In this document: piece by piece, positions 19,057 through 62,153 of the stretch | How the letters are laid out: each line of letters begins with the position of its first letter | Numbering within the stretch: the first letter of the stretch is position 1 | Assembly: GCA_012343875.1 (NCBI GenBank) | Contig: GCA_012343875.1_3924.1 | Origin: a phage | Direction: 5' to 3' (one strand) | Length of the DNA stretch: 64,000 bases | The notes under the pieces: generated by a model | What the model was told of the DNA's origin: nothing | Database searches by the model: none | The model's input: the letters and a program-made list of their open reading frames with translations, nothing else | Made by a program: the position numbers and the translations under genes

Positions 19057-19420
19057 CAGTATTCTTTGTGTTCTTTTCAGTAATAGCTTGCAAGGCTGAT
19101 ACTGATTGGGCCAGATTGTTCACACTGTCAGAGAATTTATCAAGAGTTTTGGTAAGTTTCGCATTCTCACCCTTAACATTCTCTAACTGGACTTTCTGGT
19201 TCTCCATACCTAGCTGAATCAGTCTCATGTCAGACTGTAAATCACGAATAGCTGAATAGTTACTTTTGGAATAATTATCTAGCTGCTGTAACTTTGTTGT
19301 GACAGACACTTCTTGCTTACCACTTGAAACTTGCATAGTGGTATACATCCCGATAACACTAAAAATACCAACTACAATTGCACCAATATTATTTTTAAAA
19401 GCTTCCTCTAGCCACTTCAT
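19049..19420 (-). CDS. membrane-anchored coiled-coil protein (possible i-spanin-like)
   Basis: N-terminal hydrophobic helix IGAIVVGIFSVIGMYTTM followed by coiled-coil-like sequence; last gene of late operon. Confidence 0.35.
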   Translation of the reverse strand: MKWLEEAFKNNIGAIVVGIFSVIGMYTTMQVSSGKQEVSVTTKLQQLDNYSKSNYSAIRDLQSDMRLIQLGMENQKVQLENVKGENAKLTKTLDKFSDSVNNLAQSVSALQAITEKNTKNTEK

Positions 19421-41137: not shown

Positions 41138-42754
41138 TCAACGTCTAAGCCCCTCATATGGGTTTCCTCTCACTAAATCTGTGTGAGCACCCATTGATGG
41201 TGGCTTGAATAATTTAACTTCGTTAAGACTGTTGAAAGCATCACTGGTAGCATCCACTTGGTCATCTTTAGTTTTACCATCGCCACAAAAGCCTTCAAGC
41301 TCTTGAAAGTAAGCTTCATTCCAACTACCTCTCAAGACTTTTACAAGTCCAGCTTCAGAAGCAGCAGAAAATCCCGCAAAGCGGGTAACTTTATCTTTAT
41401 TTGTTGGTTTGGCTCTTGCTCGATAACCTTTCTCGGCAAGTTTCCTGATGAGGGATGTTGCGTAGGATTTACCAGCAGCGCCTGGGTCTTGAGGGATAAA
41501 AATACCAGTTCGCTTACCGTCACTTTCAGCAGTCAAATTAATTTGTGTTTCGACTCCAGAGGGTCTATCTCTAAATCTTACTACATCAATGATATAATAG
41601 CAACCGTCTTTTTTAGATTTACCCATCTTAACACCTGCTGTCCAGTCTGGATTAGGGTTAATCTCCGATGGTAAAGTTGCTGCTAAGTCCCATGCTCTAA
41701 CATCAAATACATCTTCTGGGAGTGAATCAACAATTTCACACCATTGTCTTTGCCAATAGTTTGAACCTTCTGCACGAGCCTTCCAGTTACCGAAACGAAG
41801 TCTTGCAACGTTTACAGGGGTGTTGTTTTCCAACTTACCACGGTATTTTGGTTCTAAGAAGTCAAGAATTGGGTTATCATCAATCGTACCAGAGATGAAT
41901 GTATATGTTTGAGGAATCTCAAGAGGAAACATTTCAAGAATCTTGTCTCTCTCCCAATCAGAAACCATAACACCATCATTCATTACATACCAACGAATAC
42001 GACCACACTTTTCAGGGTCTGGGTAACCTTCTTCATCTAAGAATGGTTCTACCCAATCGTAAATAAAGTGGTCTCTGTCTGGGTTCATGGAAATCTTCAT
42101 GTATGAATCACCTTCAGCACCAGAACGTAGACGGGTTTGTAGGTATGAAATCTGTGAAGCAGAGAAGTGTGTACCTTCGTCAAAGTAAATAGCTGAGTAT
42201 TCAATACCCTGATGACCTTCAGCGTGCTTTTCAAGTTCTAGGTAGGTAAACTTGATAGTTGCCCCAGAAGGGAATGTGATAGTCATTTTCTGCTCGTGAG
42301 GAATCCCACCAAACTTACCAAATAGTTTCTTTGCAGCAGGCCATAAACCACCTTGTAACTGTGTTGTATTTCGACGGAAATATACAGCATTATAGTTAGG
42401 GTCTTCAATAAATCTTAAAGAGTCCATTAACAATGCGGCAGTCTTACCAGCACCAGCAGCACCACCATAGAGAACCAAGTCAGCATTAGTATTTAAAAAG
42501 ACCTCTTGAGAACCCGGCTGAGGGGCTACATAATTCTTATCAGTCATCAATTTAAAGATAAGGCGAACTTGGTCTGGTGTGTATCTTAATAAAGTCAGAA
42601 TTTGAGTTGGAAGGAATTTAGAGGGGTCTTTACCGAATGATTTAATAATTTCTTTTACTTCATCAGAAAGCCCCAACTCTCCAGCTAGGACTTTCCTAAC
42701 ATCTTCCACTCGCTTCTGCTTAACAGCATTTAAGTCCATTAAGCGCCTCCGCAA
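41138..42754 (-). CDS. terminase large subunit
   Basis: Walker A LVLYGGAAGAGKTAALL near N-terminus, 538 aa, followed by portal. Confidence 0.85.
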   Translation of the reverse strand: MRRRLMDLNAVKQKRVEDVRKVLAGELGLSDEVKEIIKSFGKDPSKFLPTQILTLLRYTPDQVRLIFKLMTDKNYVAPQPGSQEVFLNTNADLVLYGGAAGAGKTAALLMDSLRFIEDPNYNAVYFRRNTTQLQGGLWPAAKKLFGKFGGIPHEQKMTITFPSGATIKFTYLELEKHAEGHQGIEYSAIYFDEGTHFSASQISYLQTRLRSGAEGDSYMKISMNPDRDHFIYDWVEPFLDEEGYPDPEKCGRIRWYVMNDGVMVSDWERDKILEMFPLEIPQTYTFISGTIDDNPILDFLEPKYRGKLENNTPVNVARLRFGNWKARAEGSNYWQRQWCEIVDSLPEDVFDVRAWDLAATLPSEINPNPDWTAGVKMGKSKKDGCYYIIDVVRFRDRPSGVETQINLTAESDGKRTGIFIPQDPGAAGKSYATSLIRKLAEKGYRARAKPTNKDKVTRFAGFSAASEAGLVKVLRGSWNEAYFQELEGFCGDGKTKDDQVDATSDAFNSLNEVKLFKPPSMGAHTDLVRGNPYEGLRR

Positions 42755-42760
42755 ATAGAA

Positions 42761-42961
42761 TTATTCAGAGTCTGTAGCAGTCTCTTCTTTCTTAACTTCG
42801 AACTTTGCATCAACAGCATCAAGAAGTGCATCCATAGATGCTTCTTTAATATCAATACCTGTTGCTACAGACAATCTGTCTGCAATTGCCATGATAGTAT
42901 TCTGCATAAATTCTAGCTTCTTATTAGCTTCATAAAGTTCTTTATAAACGGTCTCGCTCAT
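42761..42961 (-). CDS. hypothetical protein (66 aa), first gene of late operon
   Basis: ORF track; GGAG about 9 nt upstream of ATG. Confidence 0.4.
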   Translation of the reverse strand: MSETVYKELYEANKKLEFMQNTIMAIADRLSVATGIDIKEASMDALLDAVDAKFEVKKEETATDSE

Positions 42962-43183: not shown

Positions 43184-43259
43184 TGGAGAATCCGAAGGGA
43201 CTCGAACCCTTATAAACCTGTTTTGCAGACAGGCACATAGCCATTTCTGTCACGGATTC
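43184..43259 (-). tRNA. tRNA-Cys (GCA)
   Basis: Hand-folded: acceptor GAATCCG/CGGATTC, anticodon stem CCTGT/ACAGG with loop CTGCAAA, T-arm AAGGG-TTCGAGT-CCCTT, encoded CCA. Confidence 0.7.
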
Positions 43260-43263
43260 AAAT

Positions 43264-43356
43264 TGGAGGAAGATACCAGACTTGAACTGGTACACCGATT
43301 TCTCAGCTACTGGCAGTTTAGCAAACTGCTCCCTTACCTTTTAGGGTTAATCTTCC
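43264..43356 (-). tRNA. tRNA-Ser (GCT), type II
   Basis: Acceptor GGAAGAT/ATCTTCC, anticodon loop TTGCTAA, long variable arm, T-loop TTCAAGT, CCA; about 93 nt. Confidence 0.65.
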
Positions 43357-43357
43357 A

Positions 43358-44092
43358 TTATTTCTGTAATGCGTTCTTCATTTCTGGTGTTGCAATAGCA
43401 TCAATTACACCAGTTTTACAAGCATCATCAAACCAGTCTGGTAAGATACCTGCTAAGAACCCATTGATATTCGTTTTAAGGTACTCTGCAATAAGGGCAG
43501 CTTCTTCTTCAATCATCTGCACAACTTCATCTGCATAAGCTGTAATCTTCGAGATACCTTCATTAATCTTACTAACAGCTTGGTTAGCTAAATCAGAAAT
43601 AGTATCAAGATCTTTGTCAATAGCGTCTTGTAAATCACTTAATACATCATTAACACCGTCTAGTGCACTGTTAATCGTATCAATAGCTTTTTGACCATAC
43701 TCTGTAGCAACACCCATAATACCACTAAATGGTGTACAACCAACTTGTTCACCTGCTGCACCCATAACATTGGAATAACCTTTTGCTACCTGCATACGTG
43801 ATGAAAACTCATCAATGGATTTTTGACCGTAATCTGTCAGTGTTTTGGTGGTTGATGTAGTGCTTGTTAGACTCGTGGTAAAGCTGTTAAGCAGAACTGT
43901 TGTAAGTCCAGCAGCAACAAGCTTATCTTTTACTGTAGGGTCTGATACAGAACTAATAGAGCTTACAAGTGATGTAGAGGCAGCTACGGTTCCACCGAGA
44001 ACTGCTGCACCAGTAATAAGGGGGTTAGAAAACCCTTTACCAGTTTTTAAGAGATTAAAAATCTCCTTACCTTGTTCTGTCATCTCTTTCAT
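43358..44092 (-). CDS. hypothetical protein with hydrophobic segment and coiled-coil region
   Basis: Track ORF 43358..44155 trimmed to internal ATG 44092 to avoid overlap with tRNA-Phe; segment LITGAAVLGGTVAASTSLVSSISSV. Confidence 0.45.
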   Translation of the reverse strand: MKEMTEQGKEIFNLLKTGKGFSNPLITGAAVLGGTVAASTSLVSSISSVSDPTVKDKLVAAGLTTVLLNSFTTSLTSTTSTTKTLTDYGQKSIDEFSSRMQVAKGYSNVMGAAGEQVGCTPFSGIMGVATEYGQKAIDTINSALDGVNDVLSDLQDAIDKDLDTISDLANQAVSKINEGISKITAYADEVVQMIEEEAALIAEYLKTNINGFLAGILPDWFDDACKTGVIDAIATPEMKNALQK

Positions 44093-44108
44093 TAAGCACC
44101 TTTGAAAT

Positions 44109-44184
44109 TGGTAGTCCAGTGGGATTTGAACCCTCTTCTCATGTTTTTCAGACACGCGCTTTAACCATATAAGCTACTTGGACT
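44109..44184 (-). tRNA. tRNA-Phe (GAA)
   Basis: Anticodon stem-loop CGTGT-CTGAAAA-ACATG, T-loop TTCAAAT, CCA; ends approximate. Confidence 0.6.
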
Positions 44185-44190
44185 ATAAAT

Positions 44191-44266
44191 TGGGGTGACC
44201 TACGGGATTTGAACCCGTATAGACCATGTTCACAGCATGGGTCATTACCATTTATGATAAGGCCAC
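44191..44266 (-). tRNA. tRNA-His (GTG)
   Basis: Anticodon stem CCATG/CATGG with loop CTGTGAA, T-arm CGGG-TTCAAAT-CCCG, CCA. Confidence 0.65.
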
Positions 44267-44297
44267 ATTTAAGGACTCTCGTAAGAATCCTTAGAAG

Positions 44298-44373
44298 TGG
44301 CAGCGGCATAAGGATTTGAACCTTAATAAGACAGCTTCAGAGACTGCTGCATTGCCAGTTATGCTATACCGCT
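44298..44373 (-). tRNA. tRNA-Gln (CTG)
   Basis: Acceptor AGCGGTA/TGCCGCT, anticodon loop CTCTGAA, T-arm TAAGG-TTCAAAT-CCTTA, CCA. Confidence 0.6.
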
Positions 44374-44378
44374 AAATT

Positions 44379-56268: not shown

Positions 56269-56814
56269 ATGGCTACAGTGAAAGAAAAAGATAAAATAAT
56301 TTTGTACGTTAAACAGAATCCGTCAAAGAGTGTTGAGGCTGTTGTAACACATATCTCACACAACGGTATTGTTTATTTCAGGCCACTGAAGAACTTAGAT
56401 TTTGACATGACACCAAACCACACATTTAGTACTTCTGCAAGGCTGTGTGCAGGGACTGTATACTCAACTGCTGAGATTGAGTCTTTATCTTTCACAGGTG
56501 CTTACAAGAACTTTATAGGGATTGCTCTAAAGGACTCTGAAGAATCTTTTAAATTTTTCATGGAGACTAATAAAGGTTGCTACGCACATGTTATGCCAGT
56601 CTATAAGAAAGTTGACACAGAACTTACCAGTAAGTGCGAGGAGATTAGTAGTGACCTGAAGGAGCGCAAAACAGCTATTCAGAATGCCATTCACATCATT
56701 GAGAGGAACCATTTAGAAGTTCTTTTCAGAGATATGCTAAAAGCAGGGTTTACTCCAAACGAAATTACAAGAGAAACACAACGTCAGTTCAGAAATGCTA
56801 TGGTGAAAGAATGA
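56269..56814 (+). CDS. hypothetical protein (181 aa)
   Basis: ORF track. Confidence 0.45.
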   Translation: MATVKEKDKIILYVKQNPSKSVEAVVTHISHNGIVYFRPLKNLDFDMTPNHTFSTSARLCAGTVYSTAEIESLSFTGAYKNFIGIALKDSEESFKFFMETNKGCYAHVMPVYKKVDTELTSKCEEISSDLKERKTAIQNAIHIIERNHLEVLFRDMLKAGFTPNEITRETQRQFRNAMVKE

Positions 56815-58312: not shown

Positions 58313-58766
58313 AGAAACAGTTCGAAAAGCAATGCTTACCAATTCAACTAAAGATGAAATGTACAAAGAAATCTGTGATGAGTTGAATTGCTCAAGACAT
58401 GCTGCTAAGGTTCTTGTACATTGTTTTATCTGGGAATGTTCAGAAGCATATATGAAACACGTAGCTTTTGAAAGTTCTAACTTACTAGGTGATGTAGAAG
58501 CTAGTGAGAAGCTAAAAGAACCTGAAGTGAAAACAGTCCCTAAAGTTGGTAATACATACCCTCTTAAAGACTTCAAGACTGGAAAGATTGTTGCAAAAGG
58601 TGTAGTAGAATCTGTTTATCATGATGGTAAATACTTACTTAAAATATTCGAGTATGACAGCCACTATACGCACTTATGTGGGATTACATTCTTAGTAACA
58701 GAAGAAGACCTTATTAGGAACAATAGCAACAAGTTTGCAGTACCAGCTTACCAAGTTTTACGATAA
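58302..58766 (+). CDS. hypothetical protein (154 aa)
   Basis: ORF track. Confidence 0.45.
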   Translation: MKIKETVRKAMLTNSTKDEMYKEICDELNCSRHAAKVLVHCFIWECSEAYMKHVAFESSNLLGDVEASEKLKEPEVKTVPKVGNTYPLKDFKTGKIVAKGVVESVYHDGKYLLKIFEYDSHYTHLCGITFLVTEEDLIRNNSNKFAVPAYQVLR

Positions 58767-58779
58767 CGGTGTGATAGAT

Positions 58780-59328
58780 ATGGAAAAAGATAACTTAAAA
58801 GAAGTTGAAGGTAACTACCTAGTCCTTGATTGGAGTGATGTTCGGGAAGCACTCTCCGAAGAAAATCTTGACTGGTTCGAACAAATTATCTTTGCAGTAC
58901 GGCATAACAGAGAAGTTGAAAATGGTAAAGAGCCACTTGAAGGAATCTTTGTAGAGAAGTCTTATCCGTTCTATGAAGACACTTTACAGAAAGTTAAGAT
59001 GTACTTTAGACAGAAGAACCGTAAAGTGGTCACTATGGTATCTCTTGGTGGACAGAATATGTCTGTGATGGAAGATATTAATCCTAAGAGACCGAGTAAA
59101 GGTATCTGTATAAAAATCACAGGACATGAAGAGTATATCTCAGTGGATGACTTTAGTGCATTCTGTAATGGCTCTTGTGTCTTTAATGGTTTTCACTATG
59201 ATATCCGAGTGTACCCAATCAAGGGAGATGATATCATGATGCAGGTATTTGATAACAACAACGGCTTTACTCATTTTTATCAGACAACCAAGTCATCACT
59301 AAAAACAGTTCTGGAAACACTGATTTAA
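58780..59328 (+). CDS. hypothetical protein (about 182 aa)
   Basis: Track ORF 58735..59328 appears to start at a non-ATG codon; first in-frame ATG at about 58780. Confidence 0.4.
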   Translation: MEKDNLKEVEGNYLVLDWSDVREALSEENLDWFEQIIFAVRHNREVENGKEPLEGIFVEKSYPFYEDTLQKVKMYFRQKNRKVVTMVSLGGQNMSVMEDINPKRPSKGICIKITGHEEYISVDDFSAFCNGSCVFNGFHYDIRVYPIKGDDIMMQVFDNNNGFTHFYQTTKSSLKTVLETLI

Positions 59329-59340
59329 AAATATCTTAAG

Positions 59341-59372
59341 AGCCTCCTTAATTGGGGGCTTTTTAATTTTTT
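59341..59372 (+). terminator. intrinsic terminator at end of plus-strand operon
   Basis: Stem AGCCTCC/GGGGGCT followed by TTTTTAATTTTTT. Confidence 0.65.
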
Positions 59373-59375
59373 ATA

Positions 59376-60917
59376 AAATTTTATCGGTTGTCCCAACCTC
59401 TGGGTCACCATCATATGTGAATAAAATATCTACCCTTCTTAACAACCTTCTTAATCTTACTCTCTATATATATAGTTATATAGTACTATATAGTATCTTA
59501 GTAACTCTCTAGTGGTCTTAATAGCCCCTCTGTATAACCCTTCTAACAAGCCCTCTAACAAGCCTTCTAAACAACCTATACAATCACCTTAACCATATCT
59601 CTACACCCTCTTAGAAGCTCCTATACACCTCTTAATCTCTATGTTAGCTATGACACTCTCTATAGGTGTTCACTAGGTATTACTAAGCCTCTATATAGAC
59701 TGTTTTAACAAACTTAACAGGAACATCTTTACAGACCTTATCTCACAAGGTCTAACACGGCACTAACAAGGTATCTTATAATCCTGTTTCTACCTGTATT
59801 TTTAAAAGACTGTATAGGTAATTATTCAGAATTTTAAAATTTTTATAAAATAGGACTATCAAGTCATTTTTTAGGGTCTTTGAAGGAACTCAAAAATATC
59901 TGTAGAAGATGTATATCTGCTTGGTAGCCCTTAACAGCTCCCTTACAAGTACTTTGCAAAATTTTAAAATATCCTTAACAATCTCTTAACAGTTCTCACA
60001 TCTTCTTAACAACTCTTCAAAGGTCTTAACAGTTTCTTAACAGAACTAACAAGGCTGTAACAGTTTTCTAACAAGTGCTGAATAGGCTTTACAGAATCTT
60101 AACAGATGACTAACAAGAGCTAACAAGTTAATTTTAAAGAGTTATTTTGTTAAGATAATTAACAAGTTTCTAACAAGTGTTTAATCTTTTTAACAAGCTA
60201 TTAACATGGTCACTATCTCTTTTCTTATCGTTCCCTTCCTTTCTTAGTGATTCTCTAAATATCCCTCTTAAAAGCTCTCTATAGCTCCTTGTAAGCTCTT
60301 TTAAGTCTCTTCCTAGTAATTACACCCCAACTGTATAGATACCTCTTTATAGGGCTTTACAGGAGCTTTTAAGGCTATGCCAAAGACTCTTACAAGGCTT
60401 TTACGTGGTCTTAACAGAGATTTAACAATGGGCTAACAAGTCTCTAACAAGTGCCTTAAAAGCATAACTATGTAGGGTTTGTTAAGAAATTGTTAAGAAA
60501 ATGTTAAGGGGGCTAGCATTTACGTAACTTTTAAGCTATCTATCACGTAACTTTGAAGTAACTTTATAGCCCCCTATAACATACTTTTTAGTGACTATCA
60601 AGGGGATTGTTTAGTTATTCACAAGATACTAGCCAACCTATTAGCTTATACCCTTATAAGATTCTTTTAAGCCTCTATAAAGCCCTGTAAAGAGCTTTTA
60701 AGGGTGAGTTAATGCAATCCCTTAAGTTAGATTGATAAGGCTGTTATAGCGCTTTATAGAGCGTTTAAATGGGCCATCCCCTTTCTGGGGTTATTGGCTT
60801 ATATTTAAGTTGATTTGATAAAAGGCTATAGAGTAGACTATAGAGTTATTGCTTTTAAGGTCTGATAAGATTCTGAAAAGGTGAGGAAAGGGATTGTATA
60901 AGGATTGGATAGACGTA
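59376..60917. repeat. ORF-free repeat-dense region with phased YTAACAR heptamers
   Basis: No ORF of 60 aa or more in any frame; about 25 copies of YTAACAR, many 10-11 bp apart (59977-60210, 60410-60450); CTTTTAAG and GTAACTTT repeats; palindromes at 59465-59493. Confidence 0.8.
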
Positions 60918-60940
60918 AAAAAGCCCCTGTGAGGGGCTGT
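60918..60940 (-). terminator. intrinsic terminator at end of minus-strand small-gene array
   Basis: Stem GCCCC/GGGGC (loop TGTGA) followed on minus strand by U-run. Confidence 0.65.
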
Positions 60941-60978
60941 ATAAAGGTATCTGGGGCTATTTAGCCCCGTTGCGGCGT

Positions 60979-61227
60979 TTAGTTAGTGCCTTCTTTGTCG
61001 TAGTACAGGGAGACAATTTTTTCACCCCAATAGTGATAAGAATAACCCTCTTTAAGAACTTCCTGTTTTGTTTCTTTCCAGAACTCATCAGAAGGGTTAT
61101 AGTCTTTGATGGTCTGACAGATAAGACCTTTCACCATCTCAAAGGCGTTATCAGTGCCTACAAGGTCAAATTTAACATCCAGAGAGCAAAAGCCGAATTC
61201 GTTAACAGTTGCGCGGATAGTAGCCAT
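60979..61227 (-). CDS. hypothetical protein (82 aa)
   Basis: ORF track; preceded by conserved leader cassette. Confidence 0.5.
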   Translation of the reverse strand: MATIRATVNEFGFCSLDVKFDLVGTDNAFEMVKGLICQTIKDYNPSDEFWKETKQEVLKEGYSYHYWGEKIVSLYYDKEGTN

Positions 61228-61318
61228 TTTAGAATCTCCTAGTTTAAGGTTTTATTTAGTAGGGAGGCCATCCCTCCCCGTTGATTAGTAATTTACTGCA
61301 TGTTGGCGTATGTTGCAA
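61228..61318 (-). promoter_or_regulatory. repeated leader cassette 1: promoter-like TTGCAA-17-TAAATT, GC hairpin, SD
   Basis: On minus strand: TTGCAA (61313-61318), 17 nt, TAAATT (61290-61295), hairpin GGGAGG/CCTCCC, then GGAG before ATG. Confidence 0.5.
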
Positions 61319-61556
61319 GCCTTTTTTCGTTGTATTTTGTAAGAATCTCACAAGATAAAACATCATATTTTATAACCGCGTTGCTTTTGTCGAGGTCAAA
61401 GAATCCAAACGCTTTACCATCTTTGAATCCGACAACTTCATAAGATTCTTTGATGATTTCACCATTGAACAAATCGCTTTCGATGCGGTGAAACAGTGCT
61501 ACGTCTTCTTTGTCAGTTGCAATTTGCAATAGTGTGGTTAATTCTACGTTTTCCAT
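61293..61556 (-). CDS. hypothetical protein (87 aa)
   Basis: ORF track; preceded by conserved leader cassette. Confidence 0.5.
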   Translation of the reverse strand: MENVELTTLLQIATDKEDVALFHRIESDLFNGEIIKESYEVVGFKDGKAFGFFDLDKSNAVIKYDVLSCEILTKYNEKRLATYANMQ

Positions 61557-61648
61557 CTTGATAACTCCAGTTTAGGACTTTATTTAGTGGGGAAGGTCAT
61601 CCCCTCCCCGTTGATTGACAATTTACAGATTTTTGATTGTCTCGTCAA
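61557..61648 (-). promoter_or_regulatory. repeated leader cassette 2: TTGACG-17-TAAATT, hairpin, SD
   Basis: On minus strand: TTGACG (61643-61648), 17 nt, TAAATT (61620-61625), hairpin GGGGAAGG/CCCTCCCC, CTGGAG SD. Confidence 0.5.
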
Positions 61649-62153
61649 TGTCTTTTTCAATATCTTTTAAAGTTTTTTCTAAGTTCTTGATATTGAACGT
61701 TAAACCTTCTCCCAGTGTCTTAGAGTAACCGCTAGGACGTAAATCATAAAGCTCGATTTCTTCCACTAGAGAAAGGTTAACAGTCCAGCCACCTATGCCG
61801 TAGGCCATTGAAACGGTATTTACAGGTGCTTTATAGAACTTGTTCAAGGACTTGATAGAACGTTCATAAGCCATTTTATAACCATTTAAAAGGTTTTTAA
61901 CGTGATTGTGAACGTTTTTACAATCATCTAAGTAAAGACCTAAAAACATCGGGAGAAGTTCCGCGACAGCTTGCATAAAGTGAGAGACTACAACGGTGGA
62001 AACATTACGACGATGGACGTAATAAGCCCCGTTTTCTGATTTGGTAATGGTTGCAAAGTGTACACCATTGCAACGAAATTCATAGGTATCTTTAACAGGC
62101 TTAGACATTACAGCATTTGAACGAATGAAGTTGATAGCTTGAAATTTGTTCAT
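61623..62153 (-). CDS. hypothetical protein (176 aa)
   Basis: ORF track; preceded by conserved leader cassette. Confidence 0.5.
   Translation of the reverse strand: MNKFQAINFIRSNAVMSKPVKDTYEFRCNGVHFATITKSENGAYYVHRRNVSTVVVSHFMQAVAELLPMFLGLYLDDCKNVHNHVKNLLNGYKMAYERSIKSLNKFYKAPVNTVSMAYGIGGWTVNLSLVEEIELYDLRPSGYSKTLGEGLTFNIKNLEKTLKDIEKDIDETIKNL

What the first reader, a model, noticed from the sequence alone, without database searches (positions are those of the whole stretch)
59376..60917. 1.5 kb ORF-free region packed with helically phased YTAACAR heptamers between converging terminators
In an otherwise tightly packed genome, about 1.55 kb has no ORF of 60 aa or more in any frame and sits between a plus-strand terminator (59341-59372) and a minus-strand terminator (60918-60940). 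The plus strand is G-poor and carries about 25 copies of YTAACAR (CTTAACAG, CTAACAAG and variants), clustered at 59977-60210 and 60410-60450 with 10-11 bp spacing, i.e. on one face of the helix. It also holds CTTTTAAG repeats, GTAACTTT x3 (60535-60590) and palindromes (59465-59493). Phased short repeats are typical of iteron-type replication origins or arrays bound cooperatively by a DNA-binding protein; a genome terminus/packaging region or a long non-coding transcript are alternatives.
Basis: partly seen in the sequence, partly recalled or inferred. Interest (0 to 1): 0.8.

Follow-up and report, generated by a model that had tools for sequence, protein, structure and literature searches.

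The report
Phage genome ends with repeat arrays
The gene-free 1.5 kb stretch is where the linear DNA of this Felix O1-like phage begins and ends: it holds the ~590-bp direct terminal repeat used to cut and package the genome, and the phased short repeats are conserved, probably protein-binding, parts of that end region, which is a known kind of feature rather than a new one.

Summary
Window 59376-60917 has no ORF above 35 aa and lies between two inward-facing terminators. It carries 24 YTAACAR heptamers on the plus strand, against about 1 in dinucleotide shuffles. Eleven of the 27 neighbour spacings are exactly 11 bp.

The window is a Felixounavirus (Felix O1-like myovirus). Linear GenBank records of close relatives, whose ends were mapped from virion reads, start and stop inside this region. 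vB_EcoM-Ro111lw (published 613-bp DTR) and Citrobacter phage HP1 (annotated 570-bp terminal repeats) end exactly at window 59923 and 60513. Window 59923-60513 (591 bp) is therefore the direct terminal repeat, present once here, and the flanks are the sub-terminal parts of the concatemer junction.

Both heptamer clusters lie inside the repeat. Their cores are invariant in 86% of columns across three genera, against 52% for other columns. Their positions are fixed, and the pattern recurs in Erwinia Kolesnikviruses. The longest invariant block straddles the left boundary.

The heptamers belong to a wider CT-N4-AG octamer lattice of 61 copies. The closest analogue is the T7 terminal repeat with its CCTAAAG arrays.

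An iteron origin is not supported, though an added origin role is not excluded. The protein that binds the repeats is unknown. I rate it ordinary in kind and modestly interesting in detail.

The parts
59338..59372 (+). Rho-independent terminator that closes the rightward gene block (last gene 58735-59328)
   Evidence: Terminator scan. The hairpin is conserved in the 9-genome alignment. It is annotated as a terminator in phage Mordin.
59376..59922 (.). Unique sub-terminal spacer on one side of the terminal repeat. It lies next to one virion end and is the left flank of the concatemer junction. It carries CT-N4-AG octamers at an 11-12 bp period, a palindromic TATAG block (59462-59496), a 12-bp CTAACAAG tandem (59539-59570) and invariant blocks (59688-59704, 59745-59760, 59837-59853).
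   Evidence: It is non-coding in relatives.
59910..59931 (.). TGTATATCTGCTTGGTAGCCCT, the longest invariant run of the whole spacer, which straddles the left boundary of the terminal repeat (cut between 59922 and 59923). It is the putative end-cutting or recognition site.
   Evidence: It is invariant in 9 genomes of 3 genera. Records of Ro111lw, HP1 and pEP20 end or start exactly at GGTAGCCC. A homologous TGTATATCTaCTTaGTgGCC is present in an Erwinia Kolesnikvirus.
59923..60513 (.). Direct terminal repeat (DTR), 591 bp, present once in this window. In virion DNA it would be present at both ends.
   Evidence: The Ro111lw record (613-bp DTR by PhageTerm, PMC6454146) starts at window 60513 and ends at 59923. 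HP1's annotated repeat_region 1-570 and 88766-89335 maps to 59923-60513. GE_vB_7A (581 bp) and MET-P1-301 (544 bp) map within a few bases. ZX4221, ECP2307, I14.1 and pEP20 start at the same boundaries. No second copy exists in the window.
59928..59936 (+). CCCTTAACA, 5 nt inside the left DTR boundary. It is one half of an inverted pair that brackets the repeat.
   Evidence: The 9-mer occurs only 3 times in 64 kb on both strands: here, inverted at 60502-60510, and at 19170 inside coding-looking sequence. Inverted repeat I4 pairs 59928-59960 with 60478-60510.
59973..60207 (+). Heptamer cluster A: 15 TAACA cores (CTTAACAG and CTAACAAG types), all in one orientation. Spacings are 11, 20, 20, 11, 9, 11, 11 and onward, which averages about 10.3 bp per helical unit.
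   Evidence: Core positions relative to the boundary are identical across three genera. The same spacing pattern occurs in Kolesnikvirus.
60147..60165 (.). Head-to-head heptamer palindrome TTGTTAA-GATAA-TTAACAA, lying in and next to an invariant 17-mer
60410..60451 (+). Heptamer cluster B: four direct heptamers spaced exactly 11 bp apart
   Evidence: (families D2 and D5). Relatives gain or lose whole 11-bp units here.
60479..60510 (-). Three inverted heptamers (TGTTAAG at 60480, 60491 and 60502) at 11-bp spacing, which end 3 nt before the right DTR boundary
   Evidence: TRF finds period 11 with 94% matches. The block is conserved in the alignment. The Ro111lw and HP1 records begin at ...ATGTTAAGGGGGC.
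60514..60917 (.). Unique sub-terminal spacer on the other side of the repeat. It holds GTAACTTT x3 (60524-60565), CTTTTAAG / CTTTATAG / CTATAGAG octamers and the invariant block CCTTATAAGATTCTTTTAAG (60652-60671).
60922..60938 (-). Rho-independent terminator that closes the leftward gene block (last gene 60979-61227, minus strand)
   Evidence: It is annotated as a terminator in phages Barry and Mordin.

Best explanation
The region is the genome-end region, or concatemer junction, of a Felix O1-like phage that packages unit-length DNA with short, exact direct terminal repeats.

Shown by homology. Window 59923-60513 (591 bp) is the terminal repeat. The 547 bp to its left and the 404 bp to its right are the unique sub-terminal spacers. 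Each spacer is sealed from the neighbouring genes by an inward-facing terminator. In replicating concatemers the repeat is present once between two genomes, as it is in this window. In virions it is present at both ends.

Inferred. The packaging nuclease cuts at the two conserved boundary sequences, and the repeat is duplicated by DNA synthesis, as in T7. The left boundary is ...TATCTGCTT|GGTAGCCCTTAACA and the right boundary is TGTTAAGGGGGC|TAG. An inverted CCCTTAACA sits just inside each one.

Inferred, at roughly 45% likelihood. The phased TTAACA/CTAACAAG heptamers are binding sites for a recognition protein, either terminase or an accessory protein. That protein would load cooperatively on one face of the DNA and mark the junction for cutting and packaging. 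The heptamers point one way over the left half of the repeat and are inverted at its right edge. They are embedded in a 1.5-kb lattice of CT-N4-AG octamers spaced 10-11 bp apart. The binding protein is not identified.
For: Identity of the phage: 257 phage records match at 90-93%, and all are Felixounavirus or relatives.

Termini:
- Ro111lw has a 613-bp DTR by PhageTerm (PMC6454146). Its record begins at window 60513 and ends at window 59923, and its end sequences are identical to the window.
[quoted passage not shown] Its annotated 570-bp repeat_regions map to 59923-60513.
- GE_vB_7A and MET-P1-301 carry exact 581-bp and 544-bp end repeats at the same place.
- pEP20, ZX4221, ECP2307 and I14.1 start at the same boundaries.
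- Pr103Blw has a 581-bp DTR (PMC8303462).
- Kolesnikviruses have short DTRs (PMC11984208).
- The Felix O1 paper inferred short terminal repeats (PMC3185647).

Selection:
- The longest invariant run of the spacer (22 bp) straddles the left boundary.
- Inside the DTR, TAACA/TGTTA cores are invariant in 86% of columns, against 52% of other columns.
- Core positions are fixed across three genera.
- Indels are whole 11/12/22-bp units.
- Erwinia phages, which otherwise share almost no nucleotide similarity here, keep the boundary motifs, the TAACA spacing pattern and the inverted copies near the right edge. The Hena2 record is opened at the homologous right boundary.

Analogue: the T7 junction has 13 CCTAAAG heptamers in and around its 160-bp repeat.

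Felix O1-type phages have a TerL but no recognised small terminase (PMC3185647).
Against: - No reads from this phage are available, so the ends are inferred from relatives that are 76-94% identical, not measured.
- Some records place the ends a few to about 15 bases away: GE_vB_7A at 59925 and 60507, MET-P1-301 at 59939 and 60492, BPS15Q2 at 60527.
- The two CCCTTAACA copies sit 5 nt and 3 nt from the reported cuts, so the symmetry is approximate. The dyad scan found nothing special at the boundaries.
- Nothing links the heptamers to terminase. No DNA-binding partner was found, and the 66-aa ORF just upstream of TerL is acidic and unannotated.
- Heptamer arrays would equally suit an origin or an end-protection function.
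Confidence: 0.85

Rival explanations
1. The arrays are an iteron-type replication origin. A phage or host initiator binds them and melts the adjacent AT-rich DNA. This role could exist on its own or in addition to the terminus role.
For: - The short repeats are phased, orientation-biased and selectively conserved.
- There are invariant AT-rich elements such as AAATTTTTATAAAATAG.
- Two matches to the TTATNCACA DnaA-box consensus lie in the flanks.
- The region is shielded from transcription.
Against: - The units are 7-8 bp, not 17-22 bp iterons.
- The flanking genes match only PHROG families of unknown function, and none is an initiator family.
- The DnaA-like matches are not conserved in relatives, and there is no IHF consensus.
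- The densest arrays coincide exactly with the mapped terminal repeat.
- GC skew in the window follows gene orientation and gives no origin signal.
Confidence: 0.15
2. The arrays are an end-protection, ejection-control or DNA-anchoring site. A virion or host protein would bind the first and last DNA to enter or leave the capsid, comparable to the repeat-rich non-coding injection-stop region of T5 (recalled from memory).
For: The arrays lie within a few hundred bp of both physical ends, are conserved, and the ordered sites sit on one helical face.
Against: There is no evidence of two-step ejection in Felix O1-type phages and no candidate protein. This reading is indistinguishable from packaging recognition by sequence alone.
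Confidence: 0.1
3. The region encodes a long non-coding RNA or a protein-sponge RNA with repeated CUUAACAG motifs.
For: The motifs are strongly strand-biased (24 against 3). The fold z-score is about -2.
Against: - Sigma-70-like promoter matches are not above shuffles (6 against 5.6).
- The terminators on both sides face inward.
- There is no credible Rfam match.
- The fold z-score is the same on the opposite strand, so it reflects DNA-level inverted arrays.
- The region spans the physical genome ends, so no transcript could cross it in virion-derived linear DNA.
Confidence: 0.03
4. The region is repeat-prone junk: slippage-generated tandem units with no sequence-specific function beyond providing a non-coding spacer for the ends.
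For: Relatives differ by whole-unit (11-bp) indels. The family of CT-N4-AG units is degenerate.
Against: - The cores are far more conserved than the spacers between them (86% against 52% invariant columns).
- Core positions are fixed across genera.
- The pattern is retained in Kolesnikviruses despite loss of general similarity.
Confidence: 0.05

Closest known systems
Direct terminal repeats of Felix O1-like phages (Ounavirinae) mapped with PhageTerm or annotated in GenBank: vB_EcoM-Ro111lw 613 bp, vB_EcoM-Pr103Blw 581 bp, vB_CbrM_HP1 570 bp
   Same: It is the same locus with the same boundaries to the base (window 59923 and 60513). The flanking genes and terminators are also the same.
   Different: Only the length differs, through 11-bp unit indels. 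Within the papers I could search, these reports give the repeat length only and do not describe the phased heptamer/octamer lattice or the conserved boundary motifs.
Bacteriophage T7/T3 terminal repeat and concatemer junction with its CCTAAAG short-repeat arrays
   Same: Both have a short exact DTR in a non-coding junction. Both have arrays of one heptamer in one orientation, inside the repeat and in both unique flanks. T7 has 13 CCTAAAG in 660 bp. In T7, maturation and packaging start at the junction (PMC3276506). The function of the T7 arrays is also not settled (from memory).
   Different: - The T7 repeat is 160 bp, and this one is 591 bp.
- T7 spacing is 13/26 bp, not helical. Here it is 10.3-11 bp.
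- T7 has no inverted copies at the far edge.
- T7 has a known small terminase (gp18), and its junction carries promoters. Here there is no recognised TerS and no promoter signal.
- The host virus here is a myovirus with an unrelated heptamer sequence.
pac sites built from phased short repeats (P1 pac hexamers flanking the cut; SPP1/SF6 pacL-pacR bound by the small terminase). Recalled from memory, not tested here.
   Same: Several copies of a short motif lie on both sides of, or next to, the cleavage point, spaced so that an oligomeric recognition protein can bind cooperatively and bend or wrap the DNA.
   Different: Those phages package by the headful mechanism and yield permuted genomes. This phage gives fixed ends with an exact repeat. 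The motifs are unrelated, and the binder here is unknown.
Iteron replication origins (lambda ori, P1 oriR, plasmid iterons)
   Same: Both have directly repeated, phased binding motifs next to AT-rich DNA.
   Different: - Iterons are 17-22 bp and few in number (4-5 in these origins, from memory).
- They lie in or beside the initiator gene.
- Here the cores are 7-8 bp, there are 20-60 copies, no initiator gene is nearby, and the arrays coincide with the physical ends.
Plasmid/phage centromeres bound by ParR or TubR (for example R1 parC, arrays of about 11-bp repeats). Recalled from memory.
   Same: Runs of about 10-11-bp phased repeats would let a small DNA-binding protein coat and wrap the DNA.
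   Different: Centromeres sit upstream of their par operon in low-copy replicons. This is a virulent phage, no par genes flank the region, and the arrays are at the genome ends.

Membership tests
Short direct-terminal-repeat (T7-type) genome end / concatemer junction | The same sequence is present at both ends of the linear virion DNA | tested here: met
   This is met in relatives. Exact end duplications of 613, 570, 581 and 544 bp occur in Ro111lw, HP1, GE_vB_7A and MET-P1-301, and all map to window 59923-60513. About 25 of 254 matching records carry two copies. The window itself holds one copy, as expected for a record opened elsewhere.
Short direct-terminal-repeat (T7-type) genome end / concatemer junction | Ends are fixed and sequence-defined, not permuted | tested here: met
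   Independent records from different laboratories start and end at the same bases (Ro111lw, HP1, pEP20). The boundary sequences are the most conserved parts of the spacer. PhageTerm classed the relatives as DTR without permutation (PMC6454146).
Short direct-terminal-repeat (T7-type) genome end / concatemer junction | Read-start peaks at both boundaries and doubled coverage over the repeat in virion DNA of this very phage | not testable with these tools
   No sequencing reads are available for the window.
Short direct-terminal-repeat (T7-type) genome end / concatemer junction | A large terminase is encoded by the phage | tested here: met
   The ORF at 41138-42754 (minus strand) matches phrog_979 terminase large subunit at E 8e-234, and Pfam Terminase_6N and Terminase_6C. 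Whether this TerL falls in a DTR-specific clade was not tested.
Iteron-type replication origin | Several direct repeats of about 17-22 bp that bind an initiator | tested here: not met
   The repeat units are 7-8 bp cores at 10-11 bp spacing. The longer families found by the repeat finder are only 60-80% alike and are composites of the short units.
Iteron-type replication origin | An initiator (Rep/O-type) gene overlaps or adjoins the repeats | tested here: not met
   The five flanking genes on each side match only PHROG families of unknown function. In relatives they are annotated as hypothetical proteins.
Iteron-type replication origin | Conserved DnaA boxes or IHF sites and an AT-rich unwinding element | tested here: inconclusive
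   Two TTATNCACA matches (59416 on the minus strand, 60615 on the plus strand) are not conserved in the alignment. There is no IHF consensus in the region. Conserved AT-rich blocks do exist.
Iteron-type replication origin | Supports initiation of replication | not testable with these tools
   This needs marker-frequency analysis, 2D gels or a plasmid replication assay.
Structured non-coding RNA (any Rfam family) | A match to a covariance model at or near its gathering score | tested here: not met
   There are only two sub-threshold chance-level hits, and neither is in the arrays. Phe_leader scores 25.9 against a threshold of 55, on the terminator. Hammerhead_3 scores 22.8 against 48.5, and lies outside the region.
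Protein-coding gene | A conserved open reading frame | tested here: not met
   The longest ORF is 35 aa. Relatives differ by 11-, 12- and 22-bp indels that would shift any frame.

The most novel reading that the evidence does not exclude
The 1.5-kb CT-N4-AG / TTAACA lattice is the loading platform of a packaging system that works without a conventional small terminase. A still unidentified protein, or TerL itself, would polymerise along about 20 phased heptamers inside the repeat. The inverted CCCTTAACA copies at the two edges would position symmetric nicks on opposite strands, so that one recognition element defines both ends of the terminal repeat.
Probability: 0.3. Interest if true: 0.55.

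Novelty: new member of a known kind. Interest (0 to 1): 0.35.

Why it matters
Practical value:
- Knowing the exact ends (59923 and 60513) lets this genome be annotated and opened correctly.
- It removes the spurious 'hypothetical proteins' that some records call inside the spacer.
- It is needed for rebooting or engineering Felix O1-type phages, which are widely used for Salmonella and E. coli diagnostics and biocontrol.
- It defines the minimal cis-acting fragment for packaging plasmids or reporter constructs into Felix O1-type capsids.

Scientific value:
- These phages have no recognised small terminase.
- A highly ordered, subfamily-wide conserved array of heptamers inside the repeat, together with boundary motifs that are the most conserved non-coding sequences of the region, gives a concrete and testable handle on how fixed ends with exact repeats are recognised in a myovirus.
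- That question is still only partly answered even for T7.

Tried and rejected
- Rfam scan of 58500-61800 at a permissive E-value found only two chance-level hits.
- The sigma-70 promoter scan found 6 sites against 5.6 expected, so there is no promoter signal.
- RNA folding of the repeat on both strands gave z of -2.0 and -1.9. The values are symmetric, so they come from DNA-level inverted arrays and not from an RNA.
- A dyad-symmetry scan around both boundaries showed no centre standing out from several others. I do not claim large-scale symmetry.
- DnaA-box and IHF consensus searches gave counts at chance level for the whole window. The two DnaA-like hits in the flanks are not conserved.
- The third CCCTTAACA, at 19170, lies in coding-looking sequence and is unrelated.
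- Looking for a small terminase next to TerL turned up only a conserved 66-aa acidic ORF. It has no Pfam match and is annotated as hypothetical (or 'unknown' / 'gp50' / 'Phage protein') in every one of the 40 records listed, out of 257 that match. TerL has no sequence relative in the PDB. I did not pursue structure prediction, because even a positive result would not link a protein to the heptamers.
- The Yersinia phage P778 record was fetched as a more distant test case, but it is not opened at its ends, so it was uninformative.
- The PC79-13 127-bp 'repeat_region' is an overlap of a record marked circular that lies inside the repeat. It is not a terminus.
- The Bas63 gene-essentiality paper and the Felix O1, wV8, VpaE1 and Mordin genome papers do not describe this region.
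- The cap on papers was reached before I could read more on the T7 junction.
Full report
**What the window is.** The 1.7 kb around the finding matches 257 phage records at up to 93% identity. All are Felixounavirus (Felix O1-like myoviruses) or close relatives. The window also holds 26 tRNA genes and a large terminase and portal at 39.6-42.8 kb, as these phages do.

**Check of the observation.**
- No ORF longer than 35 aa lies in 59376-60917.
- Inward-facing terminator hairpins sit at 59338-59363 (plus strand) and 60938-60922 (minus strand).
- The plus strand has 228 G against 293 C.
- YTAACAR occurs 24 times on the plus strand and 3 times on the minus strand. Dinucleotide shuffles give 1.06 +/- 1.04, with a maximum of 7 in 2000. 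The density is 25 times that of the rest of the window.
- Eleven of the 27 neighbour spacings of the TAACA core are exactly 11 bp and 13 are 10-12 bp. Random placement gives 1.2 on average and never more than 8.
- A sliding Fourier scan shows the strongest 10.3-11.7 bp periodicity of the whole window across 59.3-60.9 kb.
- One coordinate is slightly off. GTAACTTT x3 lies at 60524-60565.

The heptamers and the CTTTTAAG units turn out to be members of one family, the octamer CT-N4-AG. Variants include CTAACAAG, CTTAACAG, CTTTTAAG, CTTTACAG and CTTTATAG. There are 61 copies against 10.7 +/- 3.0 in shuffles, and 28 neighbour spacings of 10-12 bp against 0.2. Nowhere else in the window approaches this density.

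**The decisive lead.** In a sensitive BLAST of the region, several linear GenBank records started or stopped inside it. I fetched both ends of those records and compared them with each other and with the window.
- Citrobacter phage HP1 (Mooglevirus) carries annotated repeat_regions at 1-570 and 88766-89335. They are identical to each other and map to window 59923-60513. [quoted passage not shown]
- Escherichia phage vB_EcoM-Ro111lw was reported to have a 613-bp direct terminal repeat by PhageTerm analysis of virion reads (PMC6454146). It has an exact 613-bp duplication at its ends. Its first base corresponds to window 60513 and its last base to window 59923. The 50 nt at each end are identical to the window.
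- GE_vB_7A (581 bp) and MET-P1-301 (544 bp) have end duplications at the same place, within a few bases (up to about 20).
- pEP20 is opened exactly at 59922|59923.
- In a search with the repeat alone, ZX4221, ECP2307 and I14.1 begin at the same boundaries. About 25 of 254 records hold two copies.
- Pr103Blw has a published 581-bp DTR (PMC8303462).
- Short DTRs are reported for Erwinia Kolesnikviruses (PMC11984208).
- The original Felix O1 paper already inferred short terminal repeats from the PFGE size (PMC3185647).

The window holds one copy of the repeat, which is what a record opened elsewhere, or a concatemer junction, looks like. I therefore assign window 59923-60513 (591 bp) as the direct terminal repeat. 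The 547 bp to its left and the 404 bp to its right are the unique sub-terminal spacers. This assignment rests on homology, because no reads of this phage are available.

**Where the repeats sit.**
- Cluster A (59973-60207) has 15 cores in one orientation, spaced 11, 20, 20, 11, 9, 11, 11 and onward. That is 93 bp for nine helical units, or about 10.3 bp per unit, which agrees with the local Fourier peak.
- Cluster B (60410-60451) has four cores at exactly 11 bp.
- Immediately after cluster B, three inverted copies (TGTTAAG at 60480, 60491 and 60502) run up to the right boundary.
- The two edges of the repeat are imperfect inverted repeats of each other: 59928-59960 against 60478-60510, 33 nt and 73% complementary.
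- The 9-mer CCCTTAACA occurs only three times in 64 kb. Two of these are an inverted pair 5 nt and 3 nt inside the two boundaries. The third, at 19170, lies in coding-looking sequence.
- A head-to-head heptamer palindrome (60147-60165) lies in an invariant block.

**Evidence of selection.** I aligned the whole spacer from nine genomes of three genera: Felixounavirus, Mooglevirus and Suspvirus.
- The longest invariant run is the 22-mer TGTATATCTGCTTGGTAGCCCT at 59910-59931, which straddles the left boundary.
- Inside the repeat, the TAACA/TGTTA cores are invariant in 86% of columns, against 52% for all other columns. In the flanks the few cores show no such excess.
- Core positions measured from the boundary are the same in all nine genomes: 53, 64, 84, 104, 115, 124, 135, 146 and onward. 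Each genome keeps 19-21 cores and 60-65 octamers.
- Length differences are whole units of 11, 12 or 22 bp. This fits a tandem array that must keep its phase and rules out a reading frame.
- Erwinia Kolesnikviruses share only about 80 bp of detectable similarity with the region, yet they have the same architecture. They have a 1.4-kb gene-poor spacer, a left-boundary motif TGTATATCTaCTTaGTgGCC, TAACA cores spaced 11, 20, 20, 20, 9, 11, 11, and inverted copies towards the right edge. The Hena2 record is opened at the position homologous to the right boundary.

**How it most likely works.**
- What is shown: this is the place where unit genomes are cut out of concatemers, and its repeat ends up at both ends of the packaged DNA.
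- What I infer from the T7 paradigm (established knowledge, and PMC3276506): the nuclease acts at the two conserved boundary sequences on opposite strands, and the repeat is duplicated by synthesis.
- What I infer less firmly: the phased heptamers are recognition sites for a protein that loads cooperatively on one face of the DNA and marks the junction. The opposed orientation at the right edge would give the complex its polarity or define the second cut.
- What is unknown: the binder. Felix O1-type phages have a TerL (Terminase_6N/6C) but no recognised small terminase. The conserved 66-aa ORF just upstream of TerL is acidic and has no family match. TerL has no sequence relative in the PDB.

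**Rivals.**
The units are too short, no initiator gene is adjacent, the two DnaA-box-like matches are not conserved and there is no IHF consensus. An additional origin function cannot be excluded by sequence.
- An end-protection or ejection-control role cannot be told apart from packaging recognition here.
- A non-coding RNA is unlikely. Promoter-like sites are at the chance level and the terminators face inward. There is no Rfam match. The fold z-scores are equal on both strands.
- Pure slippage junk is contradicted by the selective conservation of the cores.

**Comparison with what is known.**
- The locus itself is the already reported DTR of Felix O1-like phages. The reports I could read give only its length.
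- The closest mechanistic analogue is the T7 junction. Reading the T7 ends directly, I found 13 CCTAAAG heptamers in 660 bp: 2 in the right flank, 3 in the 160-bp repeat and 8 in the left flank, mostly 13 or 26 bp apart.
- Compared with T7, the repeat here is longer, the lattice is denser, the spacing matches the helical repeat, inverted copies sit at one edge, there are no promoters, and there is no known small terminase.

**Verdict.** In kind this is an ordinary feature, a short-DTR genome end, and a new member of a known class. The ordered, subfamily-wide conserved heptamer lattice and the boundary motifs appear undescribed and give a testable model for end recognition. I score overall interest at 0.35.

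Noticed in passing
window 43184-48889, minus strand: There is a block of 26 tRNA genes, interrupted by small ORFs. This is typical of Felix O1-like phages.
   Followed up: no
window 61601-62100 and 56401-56800: After the finding itself, these are the next strongest 11.0-bp periodicity peaks in the window. Both lie inside ORFs of unknown function (61623-62153 on the minus strand, 56269-56814 on the plus strand). They might reflect coding for amphipathic helices (3.6 residues is about 10.8 nt) rather than a DNA signal.
   Followed up: no
window 61222-61297: An intergenic element of about 73 bp matches three separate intergenic sites in the end region of BPS15Q2 and other relatives at 85-93% identity. 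It looks like a dispersed intergenic repeat of the early-gene arm, comparable to the 57-bp intergenic repeats reported for Felix O1 (PMC3185647).
   Followed up: partly
window 59416-59424 (minus strand) and 60615-60623 (plus strand): Two exact matches to the DnaA-box consensus TTATNCACA lie in the two unique flanks, out of five in the whole window. They are not conserved in the 9-genome alignment.
   Followed up: yes
window 59376-60917 and the homologous spacers in GenBank records: Several records annotate one to five 'hypothetical proteins' inside this ORF-poor, indel-rich spacer. Examples are ULIM3, UAB_Phi87 and Sl26, and Coenus has tiny CDSs of 30-37 aa. These are very probably spurious gene calls.
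   Followed up: partly
window 42761-42961, minus strand: A conserved 66-aa acidic ORF lies 6 nt upstream of the large terminase gene. It is present in 257 phage records, has no Pfam match, and is annotated as hypothetical or unknown in every one of the 40 records listed. No small terminase is recognised in this phage group.
   Followed up: partly
Nothing links it to the repeats.
   Followed up: partly
L006/L007 (Salmonella phage PC79-13, OR687644.2): The record is marked circular and has a 127-bp 'repeat_region' at both ends that falls inside the true terminal repeat. It appears to be an assembly overlap rather than a terminus.
   Followed up: yes
window 59923-60513: TTAACA and TTTACA are 5-of-6 matches to the sigma-70 -35 hexamer TTGACA, and the promoter scan picked several of them as -35 elements. 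An array of -35-like hexamers without -10 partners at the genome ends is curious, but I have no evidence that it matters.
   Followed up: no
and one search hit lists: One record whose organism name begins with 'Staphylococcus' matches this enterobacterial-phage region. It is probably a mislabelled or contaminated record.
   Followed up: no
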